This document shows positions 6,868 to 24,072 of a stretch of 26,039 nt of DNA, one piece after another. The stretch lies in IMG/VR virus record IMGVR_UViG_2690315742_000005, positions 1-26,039 of that record; one strand, written 5' to 3'. Every line of letters begins with the position of its first letter. The first letter of the stretch is position 1. The notes under the pieces were generated by a model, which had not been told where the DNA came from, made no database searches, and saw only the letters and a program-made list of their open reading frames with translations. Source of the stretch: a virus. Taxonomy: Duplodnaviria; Heunggongvirae; Uroviricota; Caudoviricetes. A program made the position numbers and the translations under genes.

Positions 6868-6886
6868 ACTTCGTTTCTCCTCTTAA

Positions 6887-8249: not shown

Positions 8250-8743
8250 TAAGCCCCCACGTAATTCCCTGACAGATACCACTCTTCACCCGATGCAGCG
8301 CGCTTGCTGCTTTTCCGTAAGCACCGCTCACGACGCGCCAGAAAATTGTTTCGTTCTGGCTGGGAGTGGCTTTCACGGAATGCCGCCATCCACACGGTTG
8401 CAGCACGACGGTATAAGCCCCTGGACTCCAGTTCTTCAGCCTGGCGGGTCAGGCACAAAATCACCCGTGGATCGTTAGTGCCGACATAGAAATTGCGCAC
8501 AGGTCTGGTTTCTCGAACTGGTTGTGGTTCCGGTTCCTGCGCTCTCTCAGTCAGGCGCGGGAAATGTCTGCGTGTATCTCCTTCACAACGGTGAGCCACA
8601 CGCCCACTCTGACGTAACTTGCTTGCTGACTGCAGAACGCGCTGCCGTGAGTAACCTGCAAAAGCATCCGCAATGTCTCCGGAAGTACACCCCGGATGGG
8701 CTTCAATGAATTTCTGAACTTCATTCAAAAGACTCATAATCAC
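8249..8743 (-). CDS. PerC-like transcriptional regulator domain protein
   Basis: 164-aa ORF; AEELESRGLYRRAATVWMAAF resembles the PerC-family motif (..GLWRRAA..W..), preceded by a possible winged-helix N-terminal region. Confidence 0.45.
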   Translation of the reverse strand: MIMSLLNEVQKFIEAHPGCTSGDIADAFAGYSRQRVLQSASKLRQSGRVAHRCEGDTRRHFPRLTERAQEPEPQPVRETRPVRNFYVGTNDPRVILCLTRQAEELESRGLYRRAATVWMAAFRESHSQPERNNFLARRERCLRKSSKRAASGEEWYLSGNYVGA

Positions 8744-9558
8744 CCCCTGAATCCTGCCGGGATCTGGCTGTAGTCCACGTTGTCGTAACTGGCTTTGAAG
8801 TACGGGTCCTCGCGTCTGGCTGCAGATACCGCAGGAACTTCCCAGGATTCTTCGAAATGACGATCCGGACCAAAGAACGTGACAGCCTGTTTCACAAATT
8901 GTGTGCCGCTGTTACCCATCGCAGATACCCAGCCCGCGTAGCGTTTCACACCTTCCAGCATGGTTTCGGGGTTTACTCCCTCATTCAAACGGGCTTTCCA
9001 GGCTTTGAAGGCTGCAGATTTTGAATTGCCACCAGCACGTTTGGGATATACCAGCCATGCCTGCTCAAACTCCGGAGAGTATTCCGGTCGGTTTGAACGA
9101 ACTCGCACGGACTCATCAACTGATGCACCAACAGCTATTGGTTCATTGACTGGTTCTTTGACAGGTTCAAAAGAGTGACTGGTTCTGGGTGAATCTCCTG
9201 CACTACCCCCTGGTGCAACTCCTGCACTACCTGGTGAATTTGCTGCACCAGATAGTGAATTATTTGCACTACCCCCTAGTGAATCTCCTGCACCATCCAG
9301 ATGAAGGAGATAGATATTACTTGAGTTACCTTTTTCACCTTTCCGGGTGACTTTTTTTACCAGCCCGGACTCACAAAGGGCCGCAATATGATTCATCACA
9401 GAACGTTTGCTAATCTCGCACTGGTCAGCAATATGCTGGTAGCTGGGCCAGCACTCACCCTGATCGCTGGCATTATCAGCCAGCTTGATCAGAACCAGTT
9501 TTCGCAATGGATTACCCACTCGAATTTTCATCGCTTTAACCATCAGCTCCATACTCAT
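8740..9558 (-). CDS. replication initiation protein (O-like) with internal iterons
   Basis: 272-aa ORF; N-terminal winged-helix-like region (LRKLVLIKLADNASDQGECWPSYQHIADQCEISKRSVMNHIAALCESGLVKK); central Gly/Ser-rich linker encoded by direct DNA repeats at 9188..9298, as in lambda O where ori lies inside the gene. Confidence 0.55.
   Translation of the reverse strand: MSMELMVKAMKIRVGNPLRKLVLIKLADNASDQGECWPSYQHIADQCEISKRSVMNHIAALCESGLVKKVTRKGEKGNSSNIYLLHLDGAGDSLGGSANNSLSGAANSPGSAGVAPGGSAGDSPRTSHSFEPVKEPVNEPIAVGASVDESVRVRSNRPEYSPEFEQAWLVYPKRAGGNSKSAAFKAWKARLNEGVNPETMLEGVKRYAGWVSAMGNSGTQFVKQAVTFFGPDRHFEESWEVPAVSAARREDPYFKASYDNVDYSQIPAGFRG
9188..9298. repeat. iteron-like direct repeats (candidate origin of replication) inside the initiator gene
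   Basis: Five tandem 21-24-bp units with consensus about GGTGAATCTCCTGCACTACCCCCT (9188-9211, 9212-9232, 9233-9254, 9255-9277, 9278-9298), read directly from the sequence. Confidence 0.6.
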
Positions 9559-9791
9559 GCTGCACCTCCGAGATGCTTCATGTTTTTTCCGGAGCGAAAG
9601 GCTATAAGCGGCATACTGACGCGGTAATTACGGCCCAGCGGTTCACAAACCACCTTCTGACATTCACGGTCAACCAGGCTAACACGTAGAACATGCCCTG
9701 CAGGCGTGGTGTACCACTGCCCAACTGTAGGAATTGATGTTTTTTTACGCTGAAGCAAACGGCAAATATTGAGGAACAACGGATTAAGCAT
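9555..9791 (-). CDS. hypothetical small protein (early operon)
   Basis: 78-aa ORF translationally coupled (4-bp overlaps) to both flanking genes; no recognisable motif. Confidence 0.4.
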   Translation of the reverse strand: MLNPLFLNICRLLQRKKTSIPTVGQWYTTPAGHVLRVSLVDRECQKVVCEPLGRNYRVSMPLIAFRSGKNMKHLGGAA

Positions 9792-10620
9792 GACGATGCC
9801 CTCCGCTGATATTCAGGAGACGGTGAATATGAAAATTAGCCTTATCCGCCAAACGAATACGTTCAGCCTGCAAGTTAAGAAGCGTTTCTACCAGAACCTG
9901 ATGCGCCTGCGGATCCGAAAGAGTTACCTTGCGCAGAGCACGTAGTGCAGTTGTTACATAACTGAGTTTATGTAAGTCTTCATCATTCAGACGAGTGAGG
10001 GCTGGGACAGTAGCCATGATGGCAGCCTCCTTGATCGGTGAAATACTTCCACCACCGGAAACGCCAATTTCGCTGGTGGTGAACTGAACGGGGTTGGCGT
10101 AACCGGTGATCAAGGAAACCGGCGCATCTTTCGATGCCCCCGCCCAGCCCACCATAACTTTGATGTGAGCAAATGCGGACGATAAAAAAGACGCTGGCGC
10201 GTCATATATCGCCTTGATCAGTTCCAGGACGCCAATCCCGGCACCCGCTTTATAAGGTGCCTGAACAGTGTAACGTCCCGGAATGGCAGAATCAATGTGC
10301 TGGTGGTCCTTCACACTCAACAAAATCACGCCTGAATTTCCACAAAGGACTAAAGCACTCATGCGGGTAGTCTTTGCGAAGATAGATAACGCGCTGTGTT
10401 TCTGGCTCCCAACGAATAACATGGACATAAAGCCCTCTTCCGTCACGAAACCAGCGGTTAAGTTCCTGCACAACTCGCCCCCCACAGTCAGGTAAAGTTC
10501 TCTGTGGTTACTTACAGCCAGGTGATTTGGTAATCTGCATTCATGCCGTAACAACAGGTGTTCAGCGACGCTGACCACCAGCTGTTGCGACAAACGGTTA
10601 TTTGCCGTTAAACTGTTCAT
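9784..10620 (-). CDS. hypothetical protein (early operon, unknown function)
   Basis: 278-aa ORF in operon context between the cII-position gene and the replication gene; Gly-rich stretches (GWAGASKD, GVSGGGS) but no confident family assignment. Confidence 0.5.
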   Translation of the reverse strand: MNSLTANNRLSQQLVVSVAEHLLLRHECRLPNHLAVSNHRELYLTVGGELCRNLTAGFVTEEGFMSMLFVGSQKHSALSIFAKTTRMSALVLCGNSGVILLSVKDHQHIDSAIPGRYTVQAPYKAGAGIGVLELIKAIYDAPASFLSSAFAHIKVMVGWAGASKDAPVSLITGYANPVQFTTSEIGVSGGGSISPIKEAAIMATVPALTRLNDEDLHKLSYVTTALRALRKVTLSDPQAHQVLVETLLNLQAERIRLADKANFHIHRLLNISGGHRHA

Positions 10621-11180
10621 GCGTTAGTTTCTCCACAGACACAAAACGCCACGACGCCCGGAGCTGCACACTCGCGGGCGTCACTCTTTTCTGGAGCGCA
10701 AAAGATTTTGTAGACCAGTGCTGCATGCTCCTGGAGCTTCGAAATTGACAGATACAACTCATCATTAATTGCTGTCTGCTCGTGTGGCTCCACTACCCCA
10801 TCTTCAATTGCCGAACGAATCTGCTTTGAGTAACTCCCGATCTGTTCGATGACTTCCAGCAGGCGCTGGTTTATATCGGCGTTCTCTACTTCCTCAATTT
10901 CAGGAAGCGATACAAACACCCCACCAGCAGACTGTGCGACAGCATCCGCAATGTAGTGAGTGCCAGCCGCGCGCTGTAAAATCATTGCCCATCCCAGCGG
11001 GAAAATCTGATCGCCATCTGCACGAAGGCGGTTGAATAAAGCGTTCTCTGTTACATCCAGCCACTCAGCAGCTTCAGCGTAACCCCCCGGCAACGCCGCG
11101 ATCGTTTTTCTGACAGCTTTCACGTACCACTCAGGCTGTTTTTCTACTTTCCAGTGATGCTTACCCACGGTTAGCCTCAT
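10617..11180 (-). CDS. hypothetical protein in the cII/YdaT position
   Basis: 187-aa ORF immediately downstream of the cro-like gene; functional call is by position only. Confidence 0.4.
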   Translation of the reverse strand: MRLTVGKHHWKVEKQPEWYVKAVRKTIAALPGGYAEAAEWLDVTENALFNRLRADGDQIFPLGWAMILQRAAGTHYIADAVAQSAGGVFVSLPEIEEVENADINQRLLEVIEQIGSYSKQIRSAIEDGVVEPHEQTAINDELYLSISKLQEHAALVYKIFCAPEKSDARECAAPGVVAFCVCGETNA

Positions 11181-11211
11181 CGTTCTGTGGTTAAAAATTG
11201 AAGGTGTTCTG

Positions 11212-11412
11212 TTAATCTTTCGGATAGATATCCGGTCTTAAGTCAGATTTCGTAATTGCACCTGACGTGCATTGCTCAAGTTTTTTAGCCAGCACAAAAC
11301 TGGCTTTTTTATAACCATTGAAAACCAGCCGTAAGTAGCCAGGTGTTGAGCCAACTTTTCCGGCCAACTCGCCCTGCTGTTCTTTGGTTAAAGAGTCCCA
11401 ATACGCTTTCAT
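11212..11412 (-). CDS. Cro-like (YdaS-like) HTH regulator
   Basis: ORF 11212..11517 has an internal ATG at 11412 (MKAYWDSLTKEQQGELAGKVGSTPGYL...) preceded by a GGAGGT RBS 9 nt upstream; small HTH-like protein divergent from the cI-like gene. Confidence 0.6.
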   Translation of the reverse strand: MKAYWDSLTKEQQGELAGKVGSTPGYLRLVFNGYKKASFVLAKKLEQCTSGAITKSDLRPDIYPKD

Positions 11413-11502
11413 ACAATATGTACCTCCGGTATACATATTACATGATTGAAATGAACCTTCAAGATACTTGTACCTTATCGGTACAAAGGTTTTAATTTCG
11501 TT
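11413..11502. promoter_or_regulatory. divergent cro/cI control region with operator-like dyads
   Basis: 90-bp intergenic region containing ACTTGTACC-ttatc-GGTACAAAG (11467..11488) and ATATGTA-N9-TACATAT (11416..11438), both sharing a TGTACC/GGTA(C/T)A core. Confidence 0.45.
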
Positions 11503-12177
11503 ATGAAAACAATCCATGACATCCGGCGGTCTAACGCCAGAAAACTGAGAGATGGTGTTGGCGGAAATTCATCCTTTGCCACCATGATTGATCGCGAGCC
11601 AACCCAAACCAGCAGGTTTATGGGGGATGGCGCTACTAAAAATATCGGTGACAGCATGGCACGGCACATCGAAAAATGTTTCGACCTGCCTGTCGGATGG
11701 CTTGATCAAGAACACCAGACAACGAACATCACAAAAAAACCTGATGTTTCAATCACTAACAAACAAATAACGTTAGTCCCTGTCATATCATGGGTACAGG
11801 CCGGAGCATGGAAAGAAGTTGGCTATTCTGAGGTTGATTTGAGCACAGCAGAAACTTATCCCTGCCCTGTACCCTGTGGCGAAATGACTTATATCTTGCG
11901 GGTGATTGGTGATTCAATGATTGATGAGTACCGCCCTGGAGACATGATTTTTGTTGATCCCGAAGTCCCTGCCTGCCACGGTGACGACGTTATTGCATTG
12001 ATGCACGATACAGGCGAAACTACCTTCAAGCGATTGATAGAAGATGGAACACAGCGTTATCTCAAAGCATTAAACCCAAACTGGCCTGAGCCTTACATTA
12101 AGATTAACGGTAATTGCTCTATAATTGGTACAGTGATTTTCTCGGGAAAACCAAGAAGATACACAATAAAGGCCTAA
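11503..12177 (+). CDS. CI-like prophage repressor (HTH plus S24 LexA-like peptidase domain)
   Basis: 224-aa ORF; C-terminal region VISWVQAGAW...VIGDSMIDEYRPGDMIFVD...FKRL carries the Ala-Gly cleavage site and Ser/Lys dyad pattern of S24 peptidases; divergent from the cro-like gene. Confidence 0.85.
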   Translation: MKTIHDIRRSNARKLRDGVGGNSSFATMIDREPTQTSRFMGDGATKNIGDSMARHIEKCFDLPVGWLDQEHQTTNITKKPDVSITNKQITLVPVISWVQAGAWKEVGYSEVDLSTAETYPCPVPCGEMTYILRVIGDSMIDEYRPGDMIFVDPEVPACHGDDVIALMHDTGETTFKRLIEDGTQRYLKALNPNWPEPYIKINGNCSIIGTVIFSGKPRRYTIKA

Positions 12178-12195
12178 TCAATATTTATGAACCTG

Positions 12196-12222
12196 CTTCG
12201 GCAGGTTTTTTTATACTTGACA
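12196..12222 (+). terminator. rho-independent terminator after the repressor gene
   Basis: Hairpin AACCTGC-TTCG-GCAGGTT followed by TTTTTTTAT, 19 bp after the cI-like stop. Confidence 0.65.
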
Positions 12223-12921
12223 ATGTACCCATGAGATACATAATGTATCCAAAAGAAACATGAGGCAGGCAAGATTCAAACAAAATTTGGTTGTAACACG
12301 GCGTATGGCACATGCGTCGTTAGCGGTCTGGGGACGTTAAAGGGGACAATCCACTCCTTGCTCGGGCAAACAAACCAGGTAGCCGGAATGTGCAAGTCAA
12401 TGATGATGCTGATAAGACGCCTAACCAGCGTGGCGATCCGGTTTGACGCCTGGGAAGAGACCAGGGTGCAACGATGAGGGCATTTATGGAGCCGCGACAA
12501 AGTGTGGTGCCGTAACTGGCTAAGTGCTCTCAGCGTTGTGGTCATCCGCGAAATGGCGCGGCGGTAAGTATGGCTGGGTTACTCTTTCCCCGTTGAGGAC
12601 ACCGGATTGTCAGGTTGACCATACGCCTGAGTGACAACCCCACCACAACAGCCACTGCTTTGGCGGTACCAGTTTGTACACTTGCTTCCGGCTGGTACCG
12701 CTCTTTTTACAAAACAGAGAAGAGCATCACCGGACGACGGGCTCATAACCCAATCCATCCGGGCGGCGGTCACCGCAGGTGTTCTTCTCTGTTTTGTGGA
12801 GAAACTAACCGCCCCTGCGGGGGCATCTATTGAAACGTAATTGCTTAATAATCGCCGGATGGCGAGGGCTTCCTTTTCCCAAAATTCAGCGCAGTGCAGC
12901 GCATATAAAGTGGAGAACGAA

Positions 12922-13458
12922 ATGTCATTTATTAAAACTTTTTCCGGGAAGCATTTTTATTATGACAAGATAAATAAAGACGACATCGTTATTAACGATA
13001 TCGCGGTTTCCCTTTCAAATATCTGTCGCTTTGCTGGTCATCTTTCACACTTCTACAGCGTCGCCCAACATGCGGTGCTTTGCAGCCAGCTGGTACCGCA
13101 GGAATTTGCTTTTGAAGCGTTAATGCATGATGCAACAGAAGCGTATTGCCAGGACATCCCGGCTCCACTGAAACGCCTTCTTCCTGACTATAAACGGATG
13201 GAAGAAAAAATAGACGCCGTAATCCGTGAGAAATACGGGTTACCCCCGGTTATGAGTACACCCGTGAAATATGCCGATCTCATCATGCTGGCAACCGAAC
13301 GCCGCGATCTCGGGCTTGATGATGGCTCTTTCTGGCCTGTGCTGGAAGGTATCCCGGCAACAGAGATGTTCAACGTGATTCCACTGGCTCCAGGCCATGC
13401 CTACGGGATGTTTATGGAACGCTTTAACGAATTATCGGAGTTACGCAAATGCGCATGA
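12922..13458 (+). CDS. HD-domain phosphohydrolase (YfbR-like 5'-deoxynucleotidase-like)
   Basis: ORF 12841..13458; start placed at ATG 12922 (GGAGAA RBS 6 nt upstream). The H..(H) ... HD pattern (AQHAVL ... LMHDATEAY ... PAPLK) parallels YfbR (EHSLQVAMVAH ... MYHDASEVLTGDLPTPVK) as I recall it. Confidence 0.65.
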   Translation: MSFIKTFSGKHFYYDKINKDDIVINDIAVSLSNICRFAGHLSHFYSVAQHAVLCSQLVPQEFAFEALMHDATEAYCQDIPAPLKRLLPDYKRMEEKIDAVIREKYGLPPVMSTPVKYADLIMLATERRDLGLDDGSFWPVLEGIPATEMFNVIPLAPGHAYGMFMERFNELSELRKCA

Positions 13459-13811
13459 ATGTTTTCGAAATGGAAGGGTTTCTTCGCGGGAAATGTGTAC
13501 CGCGAGATCTGAAAGTGAATGAAACAGATGCTGAATACCTGGTACGTAAATTCGATGCGCTTGAAGCTAAATGTGCAGCACTGGAAAACAAAGTAATACC
13601 AGTGTCAGCTGAACTGCCGCCAGCAAATGAAAGTGTTCTGTTATTTGATGCTAATGGAGAAGGCTGGCTGATTGGCTGGCGTTCTCTCTGGTACACCTGG
13701 GGACAAAAAGAAACCGGAGAATGGCAGTGGACATTTCAGGTCTGGGACCTTGAAAACGTCAATATCACTCACTGGGCAGTAATGCCGAAAGCACCAGAGA
13801 CTAAGAAATGA
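13449..13811 (+). CDS. DUF551-like phage protein
   Basis: 120-aa ORF; Trp-rich C-terminal segment (GWLIGWRSLWYTWGQ...EWQWTF...HWAVMP) is reminiscent of DUF551. Confidence 0.45.
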   Translation: MRMNVFEMEGFLRGKCVPRDLKVNETDAEYLVRKFDALEAKCAALENKVIPVSAELPPANESVLLFDANGEGWLIGWRSLWYTWGQKETGEWQWTFQVWDLENVNITHWAVMPKAPETKK

Positions 13812-14023
13812 GCGTAATAAAAACTCATACAGGAATTGTTATCACTCGAGACGGTGAAAAGCGGATGAAATTACATTCGACTGAAACGTCCTGGGTTGCC
13901 GGACGTTGTGAATCCTACGACAAAAAGACTGGTTACCGTTGGGGGGCGCCAAACATGCGCCGCCGTCTGCTCCTGGACAGCATCAGGCCAATTAAACAGG
14001 TAGCAACCAGAGAACAAAATTAA
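13808..14023 (+). CDS. hypothetical small protein
   Basis: 71-aa ORF, ATGA-coupled to the upstream gene; no motif recognised. Confidence 0.4.
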   Translation: MSVIKTHTGIVITRDGEKRMKLHSTETSWVAGRCESYDKKTGYRWGAPNMRRRLLLDSIRPIKQVATREQN

Positions 14024-14082
14024 TTATCAGGACTGGAATTTGATATTACTGCCCGTGTGCAGCGGGCTAAGTGGAGAAACAT

Positions 14083-14289
14083 ATGCTGAACCTCGATTGT
14101 GTTCCTATCTCAACTTATTGCAAAGAAACTGGCGAAACTCCTGAAGCAATAAACAAACGTGTACAGCGCGGTGTTTGGCGTGAAGGTGTTCAGGTTTTAA
14201 AGGTTGAAGGCGTTAAGGAGAGGTGGATTGATCTTAGTGAGGTTGCAAAATGGGCCAGACAAAACTGCTCAAACTACCGCGCGGCGTAA
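14083..14289 (+). CDS. excisionase (Xis-like)
   Basis: ORF 14071..14289; likely start ATG 14083 (GGAGAA RBS upstream). Small basic protein with winged-helix-like KRVQRGVWREGV segment, immediately upstream of and overlapping the integrase gene. Confidence 0.6.
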   Translation: MLNLDCVPISTYCKETGETPEAINKRVQRGVWREGVQVLKVEGVKERWIDLSEVAKWARQNCSNYRAA

Positions 14290-15416
14290 CAATCAGGAAA
14301 CACCGCCAGGGAGAAACGATCAATATAACTTTCACCTACAAAGGAGTTAGATGTCGTGAGCCGCTTTCCAATCTAGAAGTAACACCAAAGAACATTAAAT
14401 ACGCCGAGCGTACACTCGGCGAAATCCATAATAAGATCGAAAGGGGAACATTCATTTATGCAGAATATTTTCCCCGTTCTGCTCGTTTGAAAATTTTTGG
14501 TAATGCTGCTGCAGGCAAAACGGTAAAGATGTACCTGGACGAATATCTTGAAATCTGCGAAACAAGAAAACTTTCACCCTCTACGATTGGTGGCTATAAA
14601 AAATGCCGTAGTGCGTTAGCCTCACTTCACATTTGCCCTGCAAGTGAATTAACACCAGCAACCCTGAAAGCGTGGATTCAAAGCCAGAAAACAACCTTAA
14701 AAACCATTCGCAACCAGTTATCTTTCCTGCGGTCAGCACTTGATGAAGCCGTGACCGATGGGGTACTTCAAATTAACCCCGTATCGTTAGTAACAGCTTC
14801 GCGCTACCAAAGTGATAAGTCAGAAGCAGAAAGCAGCTATGTGGTTGATCCGCTATCACCAGCAGAAGTTGATGCATTATTAGCAGCAGCCGGAAACAAA
14901 CAATGGGAAAATCTGTTCCGGTTCGCCATACATACAGGCCTGCGTAGTTCTGAATTATGTGCCCTTCGATGGCGTGATATCGACTTTGTTGGAAAAACTG
15001 CCCATGTCCAGAGCGCAAGTGTTGTCGGTGTTATCAAAGGGACAAAGACAAAAGCAGGTACTCGTAAAGTTGAACTGACAGAAGAGGCAATGTTGGCGCT
15101 GATAAATCAGAAGCCATTTACATTCATGAAGGATGCTACTGTCTTTGAAGACCCAAAGACCAATAAGCCTTGGGCAAGTGCTGATGCAATAAGGAAAAAA
15201 GCATGGGTGCCAACATTACGAAAAGCAGGTATTCGTTACAGAAACCCATATCAAACCAGGCATACATTCGCCACCCGCCATATCAGCCGGGGAGCGAACC
15301 TGTTTTGGCTTGCAGCTCAAATGGGGCATAAAGGGCCTGAGATGCTTTTCAGGCACTATGGTCGATATCTCAAAGAATACGACGGAAAAAGCTCCATCAA
15401 ATACATTATACAATGA
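14250..15416 (+). CDS. tyrosine integrase (lambda Int family)
   Basis: 388-aa ORF; N-terminal arm-binding-like domain; C-terminal catalytic region with conserved R (TGLRSSELCALRW), HTFATRHISRGANL and GHKGPEMLFRHYGRYL (H-x-x-R ... Y). Confidence 0.9.
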   Translation: MGQTKLLKLPRGVTIRKHRQGETINITFTYKGVRCREPLSNLEVTPKNIKYAERTLGEIHNKIERGTFIYAEYFPRSARLKIFGNAAAGKTVKMYLDEYLEICETRKLSPSTIGGYKKCRSALASLHICPASELTPATLKAWIQSQKTTLKTIRNQLSFLRSALDEAVTDGVLQINPVSLVTASRYQSDKSEAESSYVVDPLSPAEVDALLAAAGNKQWENLFRFAIHTGLRSSELCALRWRDIDFVGKTAHVQSASVVGVIKGTKTKAGTRKVELTEEAMLALINQKPFTFMKDATVFEDPKTNKPWASADAIRKKAWVPTLRKAGIRYRNPYQTRHTFATRHISRGANLFWLAAQMGHKGPEMLFRHYGRYLKEYDGKSSIKYIIQ

Positions 15417-15428
15417 TTATGGCGGCAT

Positions 15429-16058
15429 TTATTGCCGCCCACATAATTCATTATGCCATTTATCCAAGTAACAATCCAATTGTTTTAATGTTTTCAATAC
15501 ATATACAGGCTTACGTGGCGGATGATTTTTTTGAAAAGAATCATATAAATGCATTATGAAATCGACACAAGCACTAGATACATTCTGAGCGCGAAAAACC
15601 CTATATGACTTATTAAAACAATATGATTTCTCACATTCCATAGTAGCTTCATCTATAATATTAGAAAAATACGAAATTGTTATTTTTATCCCCCTCTCAT
15701 CGAGAAGATTAATGTATTTATTTATTTGTATGGCTTTTCCATGAATTGCCGTTAAATATATTTTCGCCGACTGAGTATGCAATCCATTAGAGTTCTTAAA
15801 ATTTTTTTTCTTAAATGGATTAGAATCTGGTGGTGTTGACTTATTAACCCAGTAATCCAGAGACAAATCTGATATTTCGTTTAAAATTTTAGCAATCGCA
15901 TCTATAATCGATTTAGATTCAGAGCGAGTAGCAATCTTCAGTGAATTATTGTAAGTAACAAACCATCCAATAAACACTAAGATAATACTCACAACACTAA
16001 ACATCCATGCGTAAGTGGACACCCCTGCAAGGGTGTCCTTAATATCAACGGTGTTCAA
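15429..16058 (-). CDS. hypothetical membrane protein (third gene of AT-rich cargo operon); start uncertain
   Basis: ORF 15429..16142; predicted TM helix (MFSVVSIILVFIGWFVTY) then Lys/Asn-rich soluble domain; very low GC. Candidate starts: TTG at 16058 (GGAG 5 nt upstream, 1 nt after the upstream stop), ATG at 16004, or ATG at 16142 (would overlap the upstream gene by 83 nt). The 3' end overlaps a hairpin (15423..15441) shared with the convergent int gene. Confidence 0.5.
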   Translation of the reverse strand: MNTVDIKDTLAGVSTYAWMFSVVSIILVFIGWFVTYNNSLKIATRSESKSIIDAIAKILNEISDLSLDYWVNKSTPPDSNPFKKKNFKNSNGLHTQSAKIYLTAIHGKAIQINKYINLLDERGIKITISYFSNIIDEATMECEKSYCFNKSYRVFRAQNVSSACVDFIMHLYDSFQKNHPPRKPVYVLKTLKQLDCYLDKWHNELCGRQ

Positions 16059-16059
16059 A

Positions 16060-16401
16060 TCAACTCCTTTGGAAAGGCTTCCTTTCTGGATTAGCCATTT
16101 CAATATATCTAAAAATTTGATCTTTATAGAACGGCAAATCACTTTTTATAATTAGTTTTGCCTTAATGTCAGCCTTAGGTACACCTTCCTTCCTAACAAG
16201 CCCTCCAAAGGCCTCCTCTAGAAACGAAGAACCAATCCCATGATTTATACCCGTAAAATCTACGACAACCTCACGCTCACCAGATTTTAATGCAGGAACC
16301 AGAAAGTCCTTACGAAAACGCTCAGCACTGTTCGGGCTGTCAGACTTGAACCTTCCAAATGGCATCTTTGAGAAATCCCTTGCTATGACGATGTTAACCA
16401 T
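16060..16401 (-). CDS. STAS-like (anti-sigma-factor-antagonist-like) small protein
   Basis: 113-aa ORF; EVVVDFTGINHGIGSSFLEEAFGGL matches the STAS/SpoIIAA-like pattern (hydrophobic strand, D-F/L-S/T-G-V, then SSGL/SSFL helix); start overlaps the upstream gene stop by 8 nt. Confidence 0.5.
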   Translation of the reverse strand: MVNIVIARDFSKMPFGRFKSDSPNSAERFRKDFLVPALKSGEREVVVDFTGINHGIGSSFLEEAFGGLVRKEGVPKADIKAKLIIKSDLPFYKDQIFRYIEMANPERKPFQRS

Positions 16402-17317
16402 CTTCTCCTCTCCTCGGAACTAATGACCATTCAATCAATGTTCCCGGCATGTACTCAGGTATCCACTCGCATTTGGGAACCTCATTTCTTGAATTATAGC
16501 TGTACTTAACATTCCCTGTGAACACCAAAAGTGATTCTGAATTCGCACAGCCAGACCCTATAGGTCTCTTTATATCCTCAGAACCATTACCACGTCCAGC
16601 GTTAACATATCTGGACTGTCCTCCTGTCAGGGCTGTTGACACAGATGTCACGTCGTCATACCCAGTAAACAACGGAGAGGCTGAAGTAAATGATTTATGT
16701 ATGCCAAGCCCAAGATCATAAATAATAAAGACAACCTTGTCTGTGTCAGGGTTGTACCAACAACTCTGCCACCATCGTTTCCCTTGCATATGCTCTATAG
16801 CACCAGCAAAGTCTGGATGTTCATATGCATGATATGAAACATTCAGCATTGCCTCACTAAGGGCTGAGGAGACCAAAAGATATTGCTCAAATGTGAGAAT
16901 TGCTTTTGAATCAATAAATTCCATCGTTTTAGCCCAATGTTCATACGGTTCCACAGCAGACTGAAAGTACCTGCGTTCCTTAGTAAGAACATCTAATTTA
17001 TCAACTGTATTTGCCATTAGAGCAATCGATAACCCCGTCCCAACAATATATCGATGCCCATACGGATTATTTTCTTTTTTCGGCCAAATGAATCGAAGAC
17101 TACTTGTGCCGAATGCCATAAAATAAGCCCTACTGATGATAGCAAACAACCTTACGCTAGCTGCAGCACCTGCATATTCTACTGTCGAAAAGTCTATAAC
17201 CACTTGTCCAGATGCTCTCGCAAGGGTGTTATCAACTGAGTTCAAAAACTTAGCTGTAACACGGCGATCAGAATCATTATAAAGGCACAATCTTTTTGGG
17301 GAAATCAACAGTTCCAT
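16394..17317 (-). CDS. GHKL/HATPase_c-type ATPase or Ser-kinase-like protein with possible N-terminal STAS-like region
   Basis: 307-aa ORF with GAGGTG RBS 6 nt upstream. Candidate Bergerat-fold motifs: N-box-like LSEAMLNVSYHAYEH, G1-like FIIYDLGLGIHK (D-x-G-x-G), G2-like NAGRGNGSE. N-terminal QVVIDFSTVEYAGAAASVRLF resembles a STAS-like strand-helix. Low GC. Confidence 0.5.
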   Translation of the reverse strand: MELLISPKRLCLYNDSDRRVTAKFLNSVDNTLARASGQVVIDFSTVEYAGAAASVRLFAIISRAYFMAFGTSSLRFIWPKKENNPYGHRYIVGTGLSIALMANTVDKLDVLTKERRYFQSAVEPYEHWAKTMEFIDSKAILTFEQYLLVSSALSEAMLNVSYHAYEHPDFAGAIEHMQGKRWWQSCWYNPDTDKVVFIIYDLGLGIHKSFTSASPLFTGYDDVTSVSTALTGGQSRYVNAGRGNGSEDIKRPIGSGCANSESLLVFTGNVKYSYNSRNEVPKCEWIPEYMPGTLIEWSLVPRRGEDG

Positions 17318-17458
17318 GGCGACACCTCAGCCAAATCTGTCTAGTCAAAAATGAGCAAAATAAATTACTATAAAATAATGACGAAGTGCACGTTTTTGAT
17401 ACGCAAAGATTGCAGGAAGAAATTAAACTTTATTTTTCATACACATAAATTCAATCAT

Positions 17459-17488
17459 ACGCGGGTTCAACTCCCGCCAGCTCCACCA
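17459..17488 (+). other. attachment-site core: 30-bp copy of the 3' end of tmRNA (ssrA), ending CCA
   Basis: ACGCGGGTTCAACTCCCGCCAGCTCCACCA matches the 3' terminus of E. coli tmRNA as I recall it (...GGACGCGGGUUCAACUCCCGCCAGCUCCACCA); upstream sequence is AT-rich and not tmRNA-like, so this is a partial copy as generated by site-specific integration. Confidence 0.6.
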
Positions 17489-17498
17489 AATAAATCAA

Positions 17499-17531
17499 GG
17501 GGTTACGTGAAAGCGTAGCCCCTTTTTCTTT
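17499..17531 (+). terminator. rho-independent terminator candidate immediately after the tmRNA 3'-end copy
   Basis: Hairpin GGGGTTACG-TGAAA-GCGTAGCCCC (one G-U pair) followed by TTTTTCTTT. Confidence 0.45.
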
Positions 17532-17611
17532 GGTAGTGGCGGCAAAATGGCGACAGACTTTTGCGTCCATCTTGCCTGTCGCCATCTTGAAATCATGCAA
17601 AGAGGTTTCAC

Positions 17612-18094
17612 ATGGAAGAACTTCACTTTGTTTACATCAATGCAAATGGTCGTATCGCTGTTCACTCTATACAGAGCATCAGTTATAGCGAAAATCATAT
17701 ACAGGGCATTTGTAAGAACACCGATCGAATAAAAACCTTCCGAAAAGACCGCATTCTTAAACAGTACGATTCACCAGAACAAGCCATTCAGGAATGCGCG
17801 TCATTCCTCCCCGAAAGCTACTCACATCTCACTAAGCAGTCTGGTCCGAAAAAAAATACATTCGATGTGTGTTTCACCGGATTTAAGAAAGCAGATAAAG
17901 AAAGATTGGTTGATAAGGCGAATGAACAAGGATTAACGGTAAGAACCTCTATAACCCAAAGCCTTCAGATGCTCTGTTGCGGTTACAATGCAGGCCCATC
18001 AAAAGTATCGGCAGCCAGGATGAAAGGCACAATCATCATAGATGAGCCTGGCTTTATACATTTTCTTGAAACGGGTGAGATTCCAGATGAATAA
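17612..18094 (+). CDS. BRCT-domain protein (cargo gene between att core and ogr)
   Basis: 160-aa ORF with AAGAGG RBS; C-terminal 80 aa (FDVCFTGFKKADKERLVDKANEQGLTVRTSITQSLQMLCCGYNAGPSKVSAARMKGTIIIDEPGFIHFL) follows the BRCT pattern seen in NAD-ligase C-termini (F-TG, G-V..S.t....l..G.naGsK..kA...g..ii.E..F); N-terminal 75 aa unassigned; AT-rich. Confidence 0.5.
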   Translation: MEELHFVYINANGRIAVHSIQSISYSENHIQGICKNTDRIKTFRKDRILKQYDSPEQAIQECASFLPESYSHLTKQSGPKKNTFDVCFTGFKKADKERLVDKANEQGLTVRTSITQSLQMLCCGYNAGPSKVSAARMKGTIIIDEPGFIHFLETGEIPDE

Positions 18095-18120
18095 AAACCT
18101 GCCGTAGCAGGTTCTCTTTC

Positions 18121-18339
18121 TCAAAAATTCATATGCCCCTGACCACCTGGCAATGGATGTGGAGGAGCAGTAGCAATCAGTGCGGGTGTCACAATAAACC
18201 GGACCACTGTTTCATGAGTAACAAAAGTGCTCCCGCAGTTAATATTTTGGCACTGGCAGTAACGCTCTTTGGTGCTTTCAGTTACTTGAAAACTGCTCCT
18301 TGTGTGTGCCGCATGACCACACTTTGGACAATTCATCAT
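18121..18339 (-). CDS. ogr: Ogr/Delta-type zinc-finger late transcription activator
   Basis: ORF 18121..18384; from the internal Met (MMNCPKCGHAAHTRSS...TKERYCQCQNINCGSTF...PHPLPGGQ) it is 72 aa and matches P2 Ogr (CPLCQHAAH...TKERYHQCQNVNCSATF...PHPLPSGQ) including the four zinc-ligand Cys. Confidence 0.85.
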   Translation of the reverse strand: MMNCPKCGHAAHTRSSFQVTESTKERYCQCQNINCGSTFVTHETVVRFIVTPALIATAPPHPLPGGQGHMNF

Positions 18340-18407
18340 ATCCAGATCCCTACCTTTGCTATCAGAATCATTGTAATGATACACAAAATATCAATATTGA
18401 GAACACT

Positions 18408-19508
18408 TTATTCCATTTCAAGATCATCAATCTTCACTTCGAGTTCAATACTGGTTGTAAAACCGTTATCCGGGCTGACGGTATGTGTCAGAGTCGTAAT
18501 GGTCCATTCCGCATCATCTATCGGCTGTTTAAAACCACTGACCTTCACAGGCATTTCCGTGTAGAGATCTGCCCGCCCTTCTGCCAGTTGTAGCGAAAAT
18601 GACGCAACGCCGCGTTGCAGGCGTTCCCACTGCATTTTCGCCGCTCGTTCGGCGTTGCTCCGGTTGGCATAAGTGCGATTAAGTACCAGCACGTTTTCAT
18701 CCGTACCCACCAGGTAATCGCCCTGCTTCGCTTCTGGCTCTTTCTTCTGCTTCTTAGTTCTGCGCTTACGCTTCACCGTGGTGCTTTCTTTCTTCGCAGG
18801 TTCGCGGGTATGCAACCAGCTGGCAATTACGCCCGTGTAGGCTCCGCGATCTGCCAGGGTAAATCGGTGACTGTCGCCGTCCTTGCGTGTGATAGTGATC
18901 ACTGGCAGAGGTTTACCAGTGGCGCTTTTGCCCTGCCCCTGCCGGATGAATAACAGATTGCCATTTTTCACCGACGCGATGGCACCGTACTGTCGCGCCA
19001 GCCGCATCAGAAAACTGCCGTCACTCTCATTAGTCTGGTCTATATGCTCCACGGGCTTATCCGACAGGTCTTTACCCAGTGCCATCTTCAGCTTGTGCCG
19101 CGCGGCTATTTCCTTCACCACTTCCCCGACGGTGGTCTTATGCCACGATTTTTCACGGCGGGTATTCAGCGTTTCCCGAAAATCAGCACTTCGCGCCCGG
19201 ATAGTCAGGCGGTCCGGTGCGCCAGTGTGTTCAATCTCGTCCACTGTGAATGCCCCTTTCGGGAAAAGCGGCTGCCCCTTCCAGCCCAGCGCCAGCGTAA
19301 TAACCGCACCACGGCGCGGCAGCACGATTTTTCCGTCAGCGTCATCCAGCTCCAGATCAAGCTGGTCCGCTTCAAAGCCCCGGTTATCCGTCAGCGTCAA
19401 ACTCATCAGGCGGTTATCCAGCACAGTGGTGATATCCCTGCCCTCAATACTGATGCTGAATGCGGGAGTTTTGTTGCCTTTGTTAAGCAGTTCAGAGCTG
19501 AAATTCAC
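18408..19508 (-). CDS. D: P2-like tail protein D
   Basis: 366-aa ORF directly downstream of U and upstream of ogr, the conserved P2 order FI-FII-E-T-U-D-ogr; size and character fit gpD. Confidence 0.8.
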   Translation of the reverse strand: MNFSSELLNKGNKTPAFSISIEGRDITTVLDNRLMSLTLTDNRGFEADQLDLELDDADGKIVLPRRGAVITLALGWKGQPLFPKGAFTVDEIEHTGAPDRLTIRARSADFRETLNTRREKSWHKTTVGEVVKEIAARHKLKMALGKDLSDKPVEHIDQTNESDGSFLMRLARQYGAIASVKNGNLLFIRQGQGKSATGKPLPVITITRKDGDSHRFTLADRGAYTGVIASWLHTREPAKKESTTVKRKRRTKKQKKEPEAKQGDYLVGTDENVLVLNRTYANRSNAERAAKMQWERLQRGVASFSLQLAEGRADLYTEMPVKVSGFKQPIDDAEWTITTLTHTVSPDNGFTTSIELEVKIDDLEME

Positions 19509-19990
19509 GACAGCAGCCCTCCCACCGTTTTACTGATATCGCTTAAGGCAGACGTTGCCGTGTCCTGCAAATTATTCAGTTGCGCACTGAGATCACCGAA
19601 CATATCGGACAGGGATTCATCCACTCGTTTGAGCGACAGGGTGAACTCAATCCGGCGCGGCATACCGTCGCGGAAAAACTCCGTTTTAGTCTGATTCAGT
19701 CCCTCAATCACATACATGCCGTAAATCGTGCCGCTGCCTTCAATCAGGGGCCATGCTTTCCCCTGTTCTGCCATCTGCTCCAGTGCCAGCAACGACAGCC
19801 TGCCGCCTGTTATTTCCGGCATAAGAACACCGGAAAGCGTCAGCATGTCGTTTTCCGGTCCCAGAAACTGCGTGGACGGACGTCGGTTTACCCGACTGTT
19901 TGCCGCATGTCGCCAGCTGCGTTGATACTGCAGTTCCTGATACGGAACGGTGCGCAGCATAAACACGTACAATCCCAGCACCATCATCAT
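19505..19990 (-). CDS. U: P2-like tail protein U
   Basis: 161-aa ORF between T and D with 4-bp overlaps; size matches P2 gpU. Confidence 0.8.
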   Translation of the reverse strand: MMMVLGLYVFMLRTVPYQELQYQRSWRHAANSRVNRRPSTQFLGPENDMLTLSGVLMPEITGGRLSLLALEQMAEQGKAWPLIEGSGTIYGMYVIEGLNQTKTEFFRDGMPRRIEFTLSLKRVDESLSDMFGDLSAQLNNLQDTATSALSDISKTVGGLLS

Positions 19991-22900
19991 GCGTCGTATC
20001 CCCCCTGATCGCTGTAGTTACTCCTGGCTTTTGCCTTCAGCCTGCGTTCACGTTCATCAAGCTGGCGTGCCACCTCCCGCGCAATATCCTGCGCACTTTG
20101 TCCTGGCTGCGTCTGAATGATGATCTGCGTCGGTGCCTCAATCCGTTGAACGAGCGGCACAGTGGCTGCGCGACTCACAATTGCTTCTCCACCTTTCGCG
20201 GGAAGTGCCAAAGGGTGCAACGGTGGAAGCTCTGCTGGCGCGGCAGCAACGCCCATCATTCCGGCAACAACGGCAGCCAGTGCAGCTGTATTTCTCCGGC
20301 TGGTCACATTTGCCGGGCCGTTAACAATTTCCGGCCCGTTTTCACCGACGATGCCAAACTGCCCGCGCGGGATATACCCACCGCTGTCATACATCCCCGC
20401 AAAGCCATATCCCCATGATGGAAAACCACCCGATGGCATCATCACTTTACCGTCTGCATTCACCGTCGCAGGTTGCTGACGCGTCACGCTTTCCGGCAGT
20501 TTTGCCTTTGCGGCCTCTTTACTGACAATGCCGAGCTTCTCCAGCAACCAGGAAACGCCGGATTTCAGGGAGTCCAGCGGATGCATGACCATATTCAGCC
20601 CTTCCGCCAGTGCCTCCCCGAATCGCCGCCCCATTGCCGCTGCGCTCTGCAGTTCGGCAGAGGTCGACTTAACGGGCGTCAGCAGATCAGTAAACCAGCC
20701 CCACAGCGCCTGCACTTTGTCGCCAATCCACTGGAACACGGGCTTAAGCGGTTCGAACGCTGCACTGATGGGACCTGCCGCCGCTTTGAATCCTTCCACC
20801 ACGCCACCGAGAAATGCGGTGATGGGTTGCCAGTATTTCCAGACAACCAGCGCCACGCCCGCCAGTGCAGTAACCACAAGACCTATCGGACTGAGCAGAG
20901 CACCTAACAGACCAGATATGGCATACAGGGCAACGCGCAGCATCGCCAGCGGGCCGGATGCGAGCACACGCAGCACCGCGCCTGCGGCAGCCAGCCCACC
21001 GCGTAGTGCTGCCAGTGGATTCATAAACATCACAGCAACAGCACGTAAACCGGATAATCCAGACCGCAAAAGTGCAACCGGCGCACCTGCTACAGTTTTC
21101 AGGACATTCCCCATCAGTGATACCGTGCGACGCAAAGACGACAACGGAGCAGTAAGTAAACCCGCTGCGTTGCCCGATGAAGCAAGCCCGCGTCGCAGCA
21201 GTGCCAGTGGTGCGCCAGCCAGCCAGGACAACGCGCTGCTGGTTCGAGTTACTGCTGCCGTAACGGAAGGTAACGTTTTGATACCCAGCACAGAGAATCC
21301 CAGACGGATCACTGCCAGCGGCCCCAGCACTGCAGCCAGCGCCACCGCTAAGGTGCCGAGGCCTACGGTAACCGCAGCCACAACAGCCACTACTTTCATC
21401 AGTGTGCCTGTCAGTTCCGGGTTAGCTTCCACCCAGCGGCGCAACGCCCCCGTGACGCTTTTCACCGTGTACAGAATATCCATCAGCGGCTGGCGCAGCG
21501 TTTCGCCCAGGCTGCTGAAGGTGTTCTGCGCTCCGGTTTTGACCAGCAACCACTGAGCAGAAAGTGAGTCTTTGTTGATGTCGGATTCTTTCTGCATCGA
21601 ACCGAGCGCATCATTGCCCGCTGTCAGTTTTAGCTGGCGCTGTAGTTCCGGCAGGTTGTTTGCCAGTTTCGCCGCGTCATCGCCAAACTCTTTACCAAAC
21701 AACATGGTCATGGCAGACAGACGCTTGTCCTGCGGCAGTGCGTTCACCTTCTCCAGTACACGCTGGATGGTTCCCATCGCATCCTTCGTCATCTGCTTTT
21801 CAATCACTTCAGGATTGAGTTTCAGCAGATTCATCCCTTCAAAGAAACTCTTGCTTTGCATGGTGGCAATGGACAATTCACGCACCATCGCGTTTGCTGC
21901 ACTGGCTGCAACCTCCGGCGCAGCGCCCAGTGTCAGAAAGGTGGAACCCAGTGCCGCCGCTTTACGATAATCCAGACGGTCAGCCACACCGCCCAGACGT
22001 TGCATCACATCAATGATGTCCGCCCCTTTCGACATGGCGTTATCATCCAGATAGTTCAGCGCATCGCCGAGCTGTTCAATATTGCGGGTAGGTATTTTGT
22101 AGAGCTGGGCGATTTTCCCCAGACTTTCTGACAGTTCATCCGCTGGCAGCTCAAAGGCTGTTGCCGCCTTTGCTGCCGTACTGGCGAAGGCCAGCAGGTC
22201 ACGTTTCTGGTCTTCCCAGCTGTCGTCAGGGTTTGCCACGTTCATGCGCGCACCACCTTCAACCAGTGCAGCGAAGTCCACCGCACCGTTTTCCATCGGC
22301 AACTGTTCGCTGGCAGCCTTGATGGCATCCTGCATTTCGTAAAAACGCGCAGTGCGGTTGCCATTATCGTCACGCAGACCATTGACCTGCTTTGCCACAC
22401 CTTTCATGGCATCTTCCATGCTGGCATAGCTTTTTACCGCCGCCATCACTGGCGCGCCCATTGCCAGCCCTGCAGCCGTGGTGGTGGCTCCGGCTCCTGC
22501 GATACGATCGCGCACTTCAAGCCGTCTTGAGTATTGTTCTCTGGCAGCGTTCATCCGTGCCTGTTGTTCACCCAGACGTTTAAGTGCTTTTTGCTGGCCC
22601 TCCAGTGCCTGCCTTGTTTCTTCAGCATTTTTCTTAAGTTCTCGCTGGGCACTACTGAGTTGCCTGGTATCAATCCCTGATTCTTTAAGTGCCTGACGTT
22701 GTCTCTGGACCGCCCCCAACAAGCCGTTATAGGTCTGCTGAAGTTCCTGTACTCGTGTTTTGGCCTGACTGAATAACTTTGCCTGCGCGGCGGTTGGCCT
22801 GTTAGTGGCAGCAAATTGTGTGGCGAGTTTTGCCGCCTCTTCGCGGGCTGCGTTCAGGTTGTTGGCTGTTATGGCTAGTTGCGAGCGCGTCTTGCGAAAC

Positions 22901-23493: not shown

Positions 23494-23547
23494 TTTGTTG
23501 TCCTGTGAATTGGGTTCTGGCGCGGAATCCCGCGCCGTTCAGATACA

Positions 23548-24063: not shown

Positions 24064-24072
24064 GTTGTCCCC

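What the first reader, a model, noticed from the sequence alone, without database searches (positions are those of the whole stretch)
15423..17460. AT-rich three-gene cargo operon (GHKL/HATPase_c protein, STAS-like protein, membrane protein) between integrase and the ssrA att core: candidate undescribed defence module
Three translationally coupled minus-strand genes (16394..17317, 16060..16401, 15429..~16058) sit in the int-to-att slot, convergent with int, and are visibly AT-richer than the prophage backbone. The first carries candidate Bergerat-fold motifs (N-box-like ...EAMLNVSYHAYEH, G1-like DLGLG, G2-like GRGNG) plus a possible N-terminal STAS-like segment. The second is a stand-alone STAS-like protein (VVVDFTGINHGIGSSFLEEAFGGL). 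The third is a membrane protein with a Lys/Asn-rich soluble domain. A GHKL Ser-kinase-like ATPase with a STAS-like partner resembles partner-switching (RsbW/RsbV-type) logic; the membrane protein is a plausible effector. I cannot match this architecture to a named anti-phage system from memory, and the location is a classic prophage accessory hotspot.
Basis: partly seen in the sequence, partly recalled or inferred. Interest (0 to 1): 0.85.

Follow-up and report, generated by a model that had tools for sequence, protein, structure and literature searches.

The report
Kinase–STAS–membrane protein prophage module
A prophage carries a tightly linked three-gene cassette (a serine-kinase-type ATPase, a small STAS-like partner protein and a single-pass membrane protein) whose first two genes are distant relatives of the recently described VapKSC anti-phage toxin–antitoxin system, which makes it a plausible but untested phage-defence module with a membrane effector in place of a nuclease.

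Summary

The A-B-small membrane protein order is kept in all 59 related loci I examined, in prophages, one isolated phage and plasmids of Gammaproteobacteria.

The architecture is no longer unmatched. VapKSC (EMBO J 2026) is a STAS-GHKL kinase, a DUF4325 antitoxin and a VapC PIN toxin, and it protects against phage. A and B are distant homologues of VapK and VapS. C replaces the PIN toxin, and B lacks VapS's inhibitory C-terminal helix.

My best reading is a kinase-gated, STAS-restrained membrane effector that causes abortive infection. Only the anatomy is shown; the mechanism is inferred. I rate it a new variant of a known kind, interest about 0.55.

The parts
16394..17317 (-). Gene A ('K'): 307-aa protein with an N-terminal STAS domain (about residues 1-120) and a C-terminal SpoIIAB/RsbW-type GHKL serine-kinase domain (about 125-305).
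16060..16401 (-). Gene B ('S'): 113-aa stand-alone STAS-like protein (Pfam DUF4325). Candidate phospho-acceptor is Ser58/Ser59 in the GSSFLEE motif. It overlaps A by 8 nt.
   Evidence: Pfam PF14213 E=8e-15. VapS hits the same Pfam family at E=2.7e-17. S59 is kept in 44/44 and S58 in 42/44 distinct sequences. MAFFT aligns S58 with VapS S48.
15429..16058 (-). Gene C ('TM'): 209-aa single-pass membrane protein. TM helix is at about residues 16-36, followed by an invariant juxtamembrane motif R45-x-E47-x-K49-x3-D53, a Lys/Asn-rich linker and a predicted cytoplasmic four-helix bundle. TTG start follows an AAGGAG RBS.
17318..17458 (-). AT-rich 141-bp leader between the att core and the start of gene A; presumed to hold the operon's own promoter.
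   Evidence: Sequence. The consensus scan found no convincing sigma-70 site here, so the promoter is inferred, not shown.
15421..15439 (.). Inverted repeat GGCGGCA-ATAAA-TGCCGCC that overlaps the stop codon of C and lies 5 nt after the int stop. Possible shared hairpin between the convergent genes.
   Evidence: Read directly from the sequence. The terminator scan did not call it because it lacks a T-run.
17459..17489 (+). ssrA (tmRNA) 3'-end att core. It marks the end of the lambdoid prophage that carries the operon and the junction with a tandem P2-like prophage.
   Evidence: Window 17459-17600 is 100% identical to annotated ssrA. The match of the operon-bearing E. coli prophages ends at about 17489. 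Rfam tmRNA E=1.4e-5.
14250..15416 (+). Tyrosine integrase of the host prophage (context; convergent with the operon).
   Evidence: Pfam Arm-DNA-bind_2 9.5e-24 and Phage_integrase 9.5e-17.

Best explanation
This is a prophage-borne three-component module. It is built like the VapKSC kinase-gated toxin-antitoxin / abortive-infection system but uses a membrane effector.

Proposed mechanism:
1. In the lysogen all three proteins are made from one translationally coupled transcript.
2. Unphosphorylated B, the DUF4325 STAS protein, holds the cytoplasmic part of the membrane protein C inactive.
3. On infection or DNA damage, the STAS-GHKL kinase A is activated. By analogy with CapK/VapK the trigger may be single-stranded DNA bound between its STAS and kinase domains.
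4. A phosphorylates B on Ser58/Ser59.
5. Phospho-B lets go of C, which then oligomerises and compromises the inner membrane. This stops the infected cell before phage progeny are released, an outcome like that of lambda RexAB.

What is shown: gene anatomy and coupling; the folds and catalytic motifs of A; the family membership and conserved Ser of B; the single-TM topology of C; strict co-occurrence of the three genes; and their location in accessory slots of mobile elements.

What is inferred: that A phosphorylates B; that B, rather than A, restrains C; that C is toxic; the nature of the trigger; and any anti-phage effect.

For: 2. Homology to VapKSC. B and the experimentally characterised antitoxin VapS both belong to Pfam DUF4325 (E=8e-15 and 2.7e-17). 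The A-family profile against the VapK-family profile gives hhalign probability 84%, E=7e-6, over both domains. I confirmed independently that an E. coli VapK homologue is followed by a DUF4325 gene and a PIN gene at a prophage end.

3. Precedent. PMC13373217 shows that VapS binds and neutralises VapC. A phosphomimetic S48E abolishes binding. The operon gives about 2 logs of protection against phage Bas42, and this needs the toxin, the Ser, and the kinase's putative ssDNA-site residue.

4. Conserved residues. B keeps a Ser at that position (S59 44/44, S58 42/44). A has Tyr48 aligned with VapK Phe54; that position is aromatic in 34 of 47 members.

5. Obligate triad. K, then S, then a small protein predicted or judged by inspection to be membrane-spanning, occurs on one strand, tightly packed, in 59/59 related loci. 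In 54 the third gene matches the C profile. In 5 distant ones (26-29% identity) K and S are still clearly family members, scoring 32-184 and 72-94 bits. There the third gene is a small protein with N- or C-terminal hydrophobic helices; the Pasteurella one fell below my hydropathy threshold.

6. Context. The triad sits in an int-att slot in E. coli, Klebsiella and Vibrio prophages. In Providencia it lies between lysis and terminase genes, and in Yersinia and Pectobacterium in tail-distal regions. In Marinobacter phage AS1 and a Pasteurella phage-plasmid it lies next to the cI-type repressor. It is also on Vibrio and Acinetobacter plasmids beside MazEF or RelE toxin-antitoxin pairs. It is rare and patchy: 10 of 5426 complete E. 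coli genomes.

7. Effector candidate. C is the only component without a signalling-type fold, so it is the only candidate output.
Against: There is no experiment on this family.

B lacks the C-terminal helix (VapS residues 94-116) that VapS needs to inhibit VapC, so B would have to restrain C in a different way.

B is far better conserved than C across distant loci (72-94 bits against 0-34 bits). That is unexpected if the B-C contact is the key interface. It fits better with B's main partner being the kinase, or with only a short juxtamembrane motif being the contact.

The aromatic residue equivalent to the VapK/CapK ssDNA-site residue is not universal (34/47), so the trigger may differ.

No promoter was identified upstream of A.

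A and B have no PADLOC 2.0 model, and I did not measure enrichment next to known defence genes.
Confidence: 0.55

Rival explanations
1. Same three-part module but with reversed wiring, as in classical partner switching (SpoIIAB/SpoIIAA). The kinase A itself binds and holds C, as an anti-sigma factor holds sigma. Unphosphorylated B displaces A from C, and phosphorylation of B resets the switch. C is still the membrane output.
Against: In the only characterised relative it is the STAS protein, not the kinase, that binds the toxin (PMC13373217). A already carries its own N-terminal STAS domain, which the paper assigns to ligand (ssDNA) sensing.
Confidence: 0.15
2. A superinfection-exclusion or injection-blocking device. 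C acts at the inner membrane to block entry of incoming phage DNA without killing the cell, and A/B tune its activity.
For: C is a single-pass inner-membrane protein encoded by temperate phages in lysogenic-conversion slots, including directly downstream of the repressor gene. Many prophage exclusion proteins are small membrane proteins (general knowledge).
Against: Known exclusion proteins work alone. A dedicated ATP-dependent kinase/STAS pair with strict co-inheritance (59/59 loci) points to a gated, potentially dangerous activity. The closest characterised relative is a toxin-antitoxin system.
Confidence: 0.12
3. The kinase is the effector. A phosphorylates host or phage proteins to abort infection or to reprogramme the lysogen. 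B is a pseudo-substrate or decoy inhibitor, and C is a membrane-anchored sensor or scaffold.
For: A has an intact ATP site. C's soluble domain is a four-helix bundle, a fold common in membrane sensor domains.
Against: SpoIIAB/RsbW-type GHKL kinases are only known to phosphorylate their cognate STAS partners (established knowledge of these families; also SiaB/SiaC). C's bundle is predicted to be cytoplasmic (positive-inside rule), not an external sensor.
Confidence: 0.08
4. Not defence. The module is a regulatory partner-switch of the prophage's own life cycle (lysis timing, induction or a holin/antiholin control) or of a host sigma factor or regulator.
For: Structural kinship to anti-sigma modules. 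In one Providencia prophage the triad lies between the lysis cassette and terminase. C has a very weak holin-family hit (E=0.17).
Against: There is no sigma factor, PP2C phosphatase or DNA-binding domain in or beside the operon. The position within prophages varies from phage to phage, and the triad also occurs on plasmids and in a chromosomal islet. It is present in only 10 of 5426 E. coli genomes, while closely related prophage backbones exist without it. All of this marks it as dispensable cargo, not core phage machinery.
Confidence: 0.07

Closest known systems
VapKSC kinase-gated toxin-antitoxin / anti-phage system (Chambers, Rani, Min, Villa, Corbett; EMBO J 2026; PMC13373217)
   Same: It is a three-gene operon in the same order: a STAS+GHKL kinase of about 300 aa, a DUF4325 STAS protein of about 115 aa with a conserved Ser, and an output protein. 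The kinase profiles align over both domains (hhalign 84%, E=7e-6). Both STAS proteins belong to Pfam PF14213. Both operons sit at prophage ends in E. coli.
   Different: The third gene is a single-pass membrane protein, not a VapC/PIN RNase. B lacks the VapS C-terminal inhibitory helix. A and B form separate sequence families: VapK and VapS score only 19 and 17 bits against the A and B profiles, whereas distant triad members score 32-184 and 72-94 bits. VapK-type kinases hit Pfam HATPase_c, while A hits HATPase_c_2 weakly. No experimental data exist for this family.
CapK/CapS DNA-damage-responsive regulators of CBASS, Bub, Thoeris and other immune operons (same paper)
   Same: A GHKL kinase with a STAS domain phosphorylates a STAS-domain partner on a conserved Ser.
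   Different: CapK has an extra N-terminal HTH (368 aa). CapS has a C-terminal wHTH and acts as a transcriptional repressor of a downstream immune operon. A has no HTH and B has no DNA-binding domain. Only C follows them. CapK scores 2 bits with the A profile.
Anti-sigma partner-switching modules SpoIIAB/SpoIIAA, RsbW/RsbV, UsfX/RsfB, and P. aeruginosa SiaB/SiaC
   Same: These are the best structural matches for both domains of A. They share the logic of a GHKL Ser-kinase phosphorylating a STAS-type partner.
   Different: There is no sigma factor and no PP2C phosphatase. The kinase carries its own STAS domain. The partner is DUF4325 rather than the canonical STAS family. The output is a membrane protein. 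The module is encoded on mobile elements.
Lambda RexAB (analogy only)
   Same: It is prophage-encoded and, in several phages, lies directly downstream of the cI-type repressor. The proposed design of a cytoplasmic sensor plus a membrane effector resembles Rex.
   Different: There is no sequence or fold relationship. PADLOC has no Rex hit. Rex is a two-component system without a kinase.
CBASS/Pycsar transmembrane effectors
   Same: They are small proteins with N-terminal TM helices and a cytoplasmic regulatory domain, used as abortive-infection effectors. PADLOC '2TM effector' models give weak hits in 6 of 27 C-family members.
   Different: The hits are not significant (E about 1e-3 to 7e-3). 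C has one TM helix. The system has no nucleotide-signalling enzyme.

Membership tests
VapKSC | The first gene encodes a fused STAS + GHKL kinase (VapK). | tested here: met
VapKSC | The second gene encodes a small STAS (DUF4325) protein with a conserved phospho-acceptor Ser/Thr. | tested here: met
   B hits PF14213 at E=8e-15 and VapS at E=2.7e-17. S59 is invariant and S58 is 42/44. S58 aligns with VapS S48.
VapKSC | VapS has a C-terminal helix (residues 94-116) that reaches the toxin active site and is required for antitoxin activity. | tested here: not met
   B and its homologues end about 10 variable residues after the STAS domain. The VapS tail has no counterpart in alignment A3.
VapKSC | The third gene encodes a VapC-like PIN nuclease toxin. 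| tested here: not met
   C has no PIN hit in Pfam or NCBIfam. It has one TM helix and an all-helical bundle. A genuine vapKSC locus shows a PIN gene in that position.
VapKSC | An aromatic residue at the STAS/kinase interface is needed for (predicted) ssDNA activation (VapK F54, CapK W68). | tested here: inconclusive
   Tyr48 of A aligns with VapK F54. Only 34 of 47 family members have F or Y there. DNA binding cannot be modelled with these tools.
VapKSC | Toxicity of the third protein is neutralised by the STAS protein, and the operon protects against phage. | not testable with these tools
   This needs wet-lab assays.
CapK/CapS regulators | CapK has an N-terminal HTH, and CapS has a C-terminal wHTH and binds promoter palindromes. 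| tested here: not met
   A (307 aa) starts directly with the STAS domain and has no HTH hit. B (113 aa) is a STAS domain only. CapK is 368 aa and scores 2 bits with the A profile.
CapK/CapS regulators | The pair lies upstream of a known immune operon (CBASS, Bub, Thoeris and others). | tested here: not met
   Only C follows B, then the convergent integrase. The same holds in all other loci.
SpoIIAB/RsbW anti-sigma partner-switching modules | A GHKL serine-kinase fold with N, G1 and G2 boxes. | tested here: met
SpoIIAB/RsbW anti-sigma partner-switching modules | A cognate sigma factor and a PP2C phosphatase in the module. | tested here: not met
   Neither is present in the operon or its flanks in the window or in related loci.
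Known defence systems in PADLOC-DB 2.0.0 | A significant match of any component to a system model. | tested here: not met
   A and B have no hit at E<=1. C has only a weak 2TM-effector hit at E=0.0056.

The most novel reading that the evidence does not exclude
The triad is the founding example of a large, uncharacterised family of mobile-element-borne defence modules. The A-type kinase profile finds 2467 clusters (50% identity) at E<=1e-3, though I sampled only a few distant ones for gene context. In this reading, a STAS-GHKL kinase and a DUF4325 STAS switch gate fast-evolving membrane effectors. That would be a Rex-like membrane abortive-infection device controlled by serine phosphorylation. 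It would show that the kinase/STAS pair is a general sensor cassette that can be plugged onto nuclease, transcriptional or membrane outputs, possibly sensing a trigger other than ssDNA.
Probability: 0.45. Interest if true: 0.7.

Novelty: new variant of a known kind. Interest (0 to 1): 0.55.

Why it matters
If the model is right, phosphorylation-based partner switching, known from sporulation and stress sigma factors, is used widely by temperate phages and plasmids to arm a membrane-targeting suicide effector.

It would extend the 2026 CapKS/VapKSC discovery from transcriptional and nuclease outputs to a third class of output. It would give the DUF4325 Pfam family and three 'unknown function' PHROGs a role. 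It would also add a candidate system that PADLOC-DB 2.0.0 (2023), the only defence-model library tested here, does not detect.

The predictions can be tested directly with point mutants: B S58/S59, A N159/D201/Y48, and C R45/E47/K49/D53.

Tried and rejected
- Sequence search of B against PDB chains found nothing even at E<=10. The VapS-VapC entry 9Z7O is evidently not in the copy, so I took the VapS and VapK sequences from the paper's AF3 model file and CapK from its plasmid map.
- The afdb50 fold library was unavailable.
- The sigma-70 scan found no convincing promoter in the 141-bp leader.
- tblastn of A against 50,697 phage records found no match. Only a more distant family member retrieved Marinobacter phage AS1.
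The operon partners of most of the 2467 related kinase clusters therefore remain unsampled.
- Literature searches for DUF4325, the RefSeq accessions, and STAS/HATPase terms in defence-discovery papers found no description of this triad. The only traces were an unannotated table entry for Francisella phage KIRK and a 2017 note that a PIN subgroup is coupled to DUF4325 genes.
- I rejected the idea that the conserved Ser-rich juxtamembrane motif of C (TRSESKS) is a phospho-site. Its serines are replaced by N, A, T or D in distant homologues, while R, E, K and D stay invariant.
Full report
**1. What is in the sequence**

A runs 16394..17317 (307 aa), B 16060..16401 (113 aa) and C 15429..16058 (209 aa), all on the minus strand. 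RefSeq annotates the same three CDS in a 100%-identical E. coli prophage (strain 2A).

A and B overlap by 8 nt. C starts at a TTG two bases after B's stop, 5 nt downstream of an AAGGAG ribosome-binding site. The three genes therefore look translationally coupled.

They are convergent with a tyrosine integrase at 14250..15416. They end 141 bp before the ssrA 3'-end att core at about 17459-17489.

GC content is 41.8%, 40.6% and 32.4% for A, B and C. The window as a whole is 49.9%.

The carrying element is a lambdoid prophage (lysis genes, Q, RusA, KilA-N, cI/cro-type genes). In this window it is followed in tandem by a P2-like prophage (Ogr, gpD, tape measure).

The operon is rare. It is in 10 of 5426 complete E. 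coli genomes, always at this prophage end.

**2. The three proteins**

*Protein A.* The AF2 model is confident (pLDDT 90, pTM 0.90).
- In 47 distinct family members the following are invariant: E155, N159, H163-A164-Y165, D201, G203, G243, G245 and S246.
- Sequence-level hits to HATPase_c_2, SpoIIAB and RsbW are weak but consistent with this.

*Protein B.* It is a bona fide member of Pfam DUF4325 ('STAS-like'; E=8e-15, above the curated cutoff).
- In the GSSFLEE motif at the start of the second helix, where SpoIIAA, RsbV, CapS and VapS carry their phospho-serine, S59 is invariant (44/44) and S58 nearly so (42/44).

*Protein C.*
- It has a single hydrophobic helix at residues about 16-36. There are more K/R residues after it than before it (3 against 1), so the larger part is predicted to be cytoplasmic.
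- An invariant R45-x-E47-x-K49-x3-D53 motif follows the TM helix.
- The AF2 model (pLDDT 78.6) is one long helix running from the membrane into a four-helix bundle.
- A few family members touch PADLOC's CBASS '2TM effector' models at non-significant E-values.

**3. It is a unit**

The A family has 149 90%-identity clusters in Enterobacterales, Vibrionales, Alteromonadales and Pasteurellales, all annotated 'hypothetical'.

I examined 54 related loci drawn from genomes, assemblies and IMG/VR viral contigs. Profile searches on six-frame ORFs found A, then B, then C in that order on one strand, with short or no gaps, in all 54.

Five more distant loci (26-29% identity to A or to a distant representative) come from a Pasteurella phage-plasmid, two Vibrio plasmids, an Acinetobacter plasmid and Marinobacter phage AS1. 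All five again show a kinase, then a STAS-like gene, then a small protein with terminal hydrophobic helices.
- Their K and S proteins are clearly in the A and B families (32-184 and 72-94 bits).
- Their third proteins have diverged beyond recognition, except in phage AS1 (34 bits).

The published gene table of Francisella phage KIRK lists the same triplet next to its cI repressor: a 293-aa hypothetical protein, a 112-aa DUF4325 protein and a 125-aa TM protein (PMC7924643).

An exhaustive profile search finds 2467 50%-identity clusters related to A at E<=1e-3, and 1328 at E<=1e-10. I could inspect the gene context of only a handful of these.

The genomic slots are typical for cargo:
- int-att ends;
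- the repressor-adjacent position, like lambda rexAB;
- between lysis and packaging genes;
- tail-distal regions;
- plasmid accessory regions beside MazEF or RelE pairs, anti-restriction genes and an AcrIF11-like gene.

**4. Comparison with what is known**

A literature search turned up Chambers et al. (EMBO J 2026, PMC13373217).

They describe CapK (HTH-STAS-GHKL kinase) and CapS (STAS-wHTH repressor). This pair de-represses adjacent immune operons when ssDNA activates the kinase.

They also describe a three-gene toxin-antitoxin operon, vapKSC:
- VapK is a STAS-GHKL kinase.
- VapS is a 116-aa STAS protein with a C-terminal helix. It binds and inhibits VapC.
- VapC is a PIN toxin.
- The phosphomimetic VapS S48E releases VapC.
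- The operon gives about 2 logs of protection against phage Bas42. Protection depends on VapC D28, VapS S48 and VapK F54.

I recovered the VapS and VapK sequences from the paper's AF3 file.
- VapS is Pfam DUF4325 at E=2.7e-17, the same family as B.
- The A-family profile aligns with a VapK-family profile over both domains (hhalign 84%, E=7e-6, 251 columns). Tyr48 of A sits opposite VapK Phe54.
- An E. coli VapK homologue is indeed followed by DUF4325 and PIN genes at a P2-like prophage end.

The differences are clear:
- C is a membrane protein, not a PIN nuclease.
- B lacks the VapS tail.
- A and B are separate sequence families from VapK and VapS (19 and 17 bits) and from CapK (2 bits).
- There is no HTH or wHTH.

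The paper does not mention a membrane-protein variant. PADLOC 2.0 has no model for A or B. Other recent discovery papers I checked do not list this combination.

**5. Most likely mechanism**

By homology of two of the three parts, by identical gene order, and by elimination (C is the only non-signalling component), I propose a kinase-gated membrane-effector module:
1. B restrains C.
2. An infection or DNA-damage signal activates A.
3. A phosphorylates B on Ser58/59.
4. C is released and damages the inner membrane, aborting the infection.

Everything beyond anatomy, folds, conserved residues, synteny and context is inference.

Points that weaken the simple VapS-like wiring:
- B has no inhibitory tail.
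- B is much better conserved than C. This favours either a short conserved juxtamembrane contact or the alternative wiring in which A holds C and B competes for A.
- The putative ssDNA-site aromatic residue is present in only 34 of 47 members.

I keep as rivals a non-lethal superinfection-exclusion role, a kinase-as-effector model and a phage-intrinsic regulatory role. The last is disfavoured by the variable position, the presence on plasmids, the rarity, and the absence of a sigma factor, phosphatase or DNA-binding domain.

**6. Verdict**

However, the claim that the architecture is undescribed is out of date, because the kinase/STAS pair belongs to the kind of system published in 2026 as VapKSC and CapKS.

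What remains new:
- the membrane third component;
- the distinct, large and MGE-associated sequence family;
- its Rex-like placement in several phages.

I classify it as a new variant of a known kind, with moderate interest (0.55). It is a well-defined, readily testable candidate defence module rather than a conceptual surprise.

Noticed in passing
window 17612-18094 (+): A 160-aa ORF lies between the ssrA att core and ogr of the tandem P2-like prophage. It gives a weak Pfam BRCT hit (E=0.0022) and matches the C-terminal part of the PADLOC candidate PDC-S48 (E=4e-7). It may be a second cargo or defence-candidate gene at the other prophage's end.
   Followed up: partly
window 1-17489 and 17490-26039: Two prophages are integrated in tandem at ssrA. 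One is a lambdoid element carrying the triad. The other is a P2-like element (ogr 18121-18384, gpD 18408-19508, tape measure 19987-23064). The att core at 17459-17489 is their junction. In other E. coli strains the lambdoid prophage is present without the P2-like neighbour.
   Followed up: partly
window 9189-9293: Three imperfect 39-nt direct repeats (GTGAATCTCCTGCACTACCCCCT...) lie inside the 272-aa minus-strand ORF 8740..9558. They are probably origin iterons within a replication-initiator gene.
   Followed up: no
L060 3351-5277 (Marinobacter phage AS1), L017 4989-6635 (Pasteurella phage-plasmid); Francisella phage KIRK Fhv_0046-0048 (PMC7924643): In these phages the same kinase/STAS/TM triad lies directly downstream of the cI-type repressor gene. 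This is the position rexAB occupies in lambda, which suggests co-expression with the repressor in lysogens.
   Followed up: partly
window 15429-16058 versus 16060-17317: Gene C is markedly more AT-rich (32.4% GC) than A and B (about 41%). Its protein family also diverges much faster than A and B. This is compatible with rapid evolution or swapping of the effector behind a conserved kinase/STAS pair.
   Followed up: partly
L015 7552-8031: In a Providencia lambdoid prophage, an AcrIF11-like ADP-ribosyltransferase gene and a YdaS-like gene lie about 2 kb upstream of the triad. Anti-defence and candidate defence cargo share one accessory region there.
   Followed up: no
L058 6001-7860: A genuine E. 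coli vapKSC operon (VapK homologue at 92% identity, then a DUF4325 gene, then a PIN gene) lies next to tail-fibre genes of a P2-like prophage. The characterised relative is therefore also prophage cargo.
   Followed up: partly
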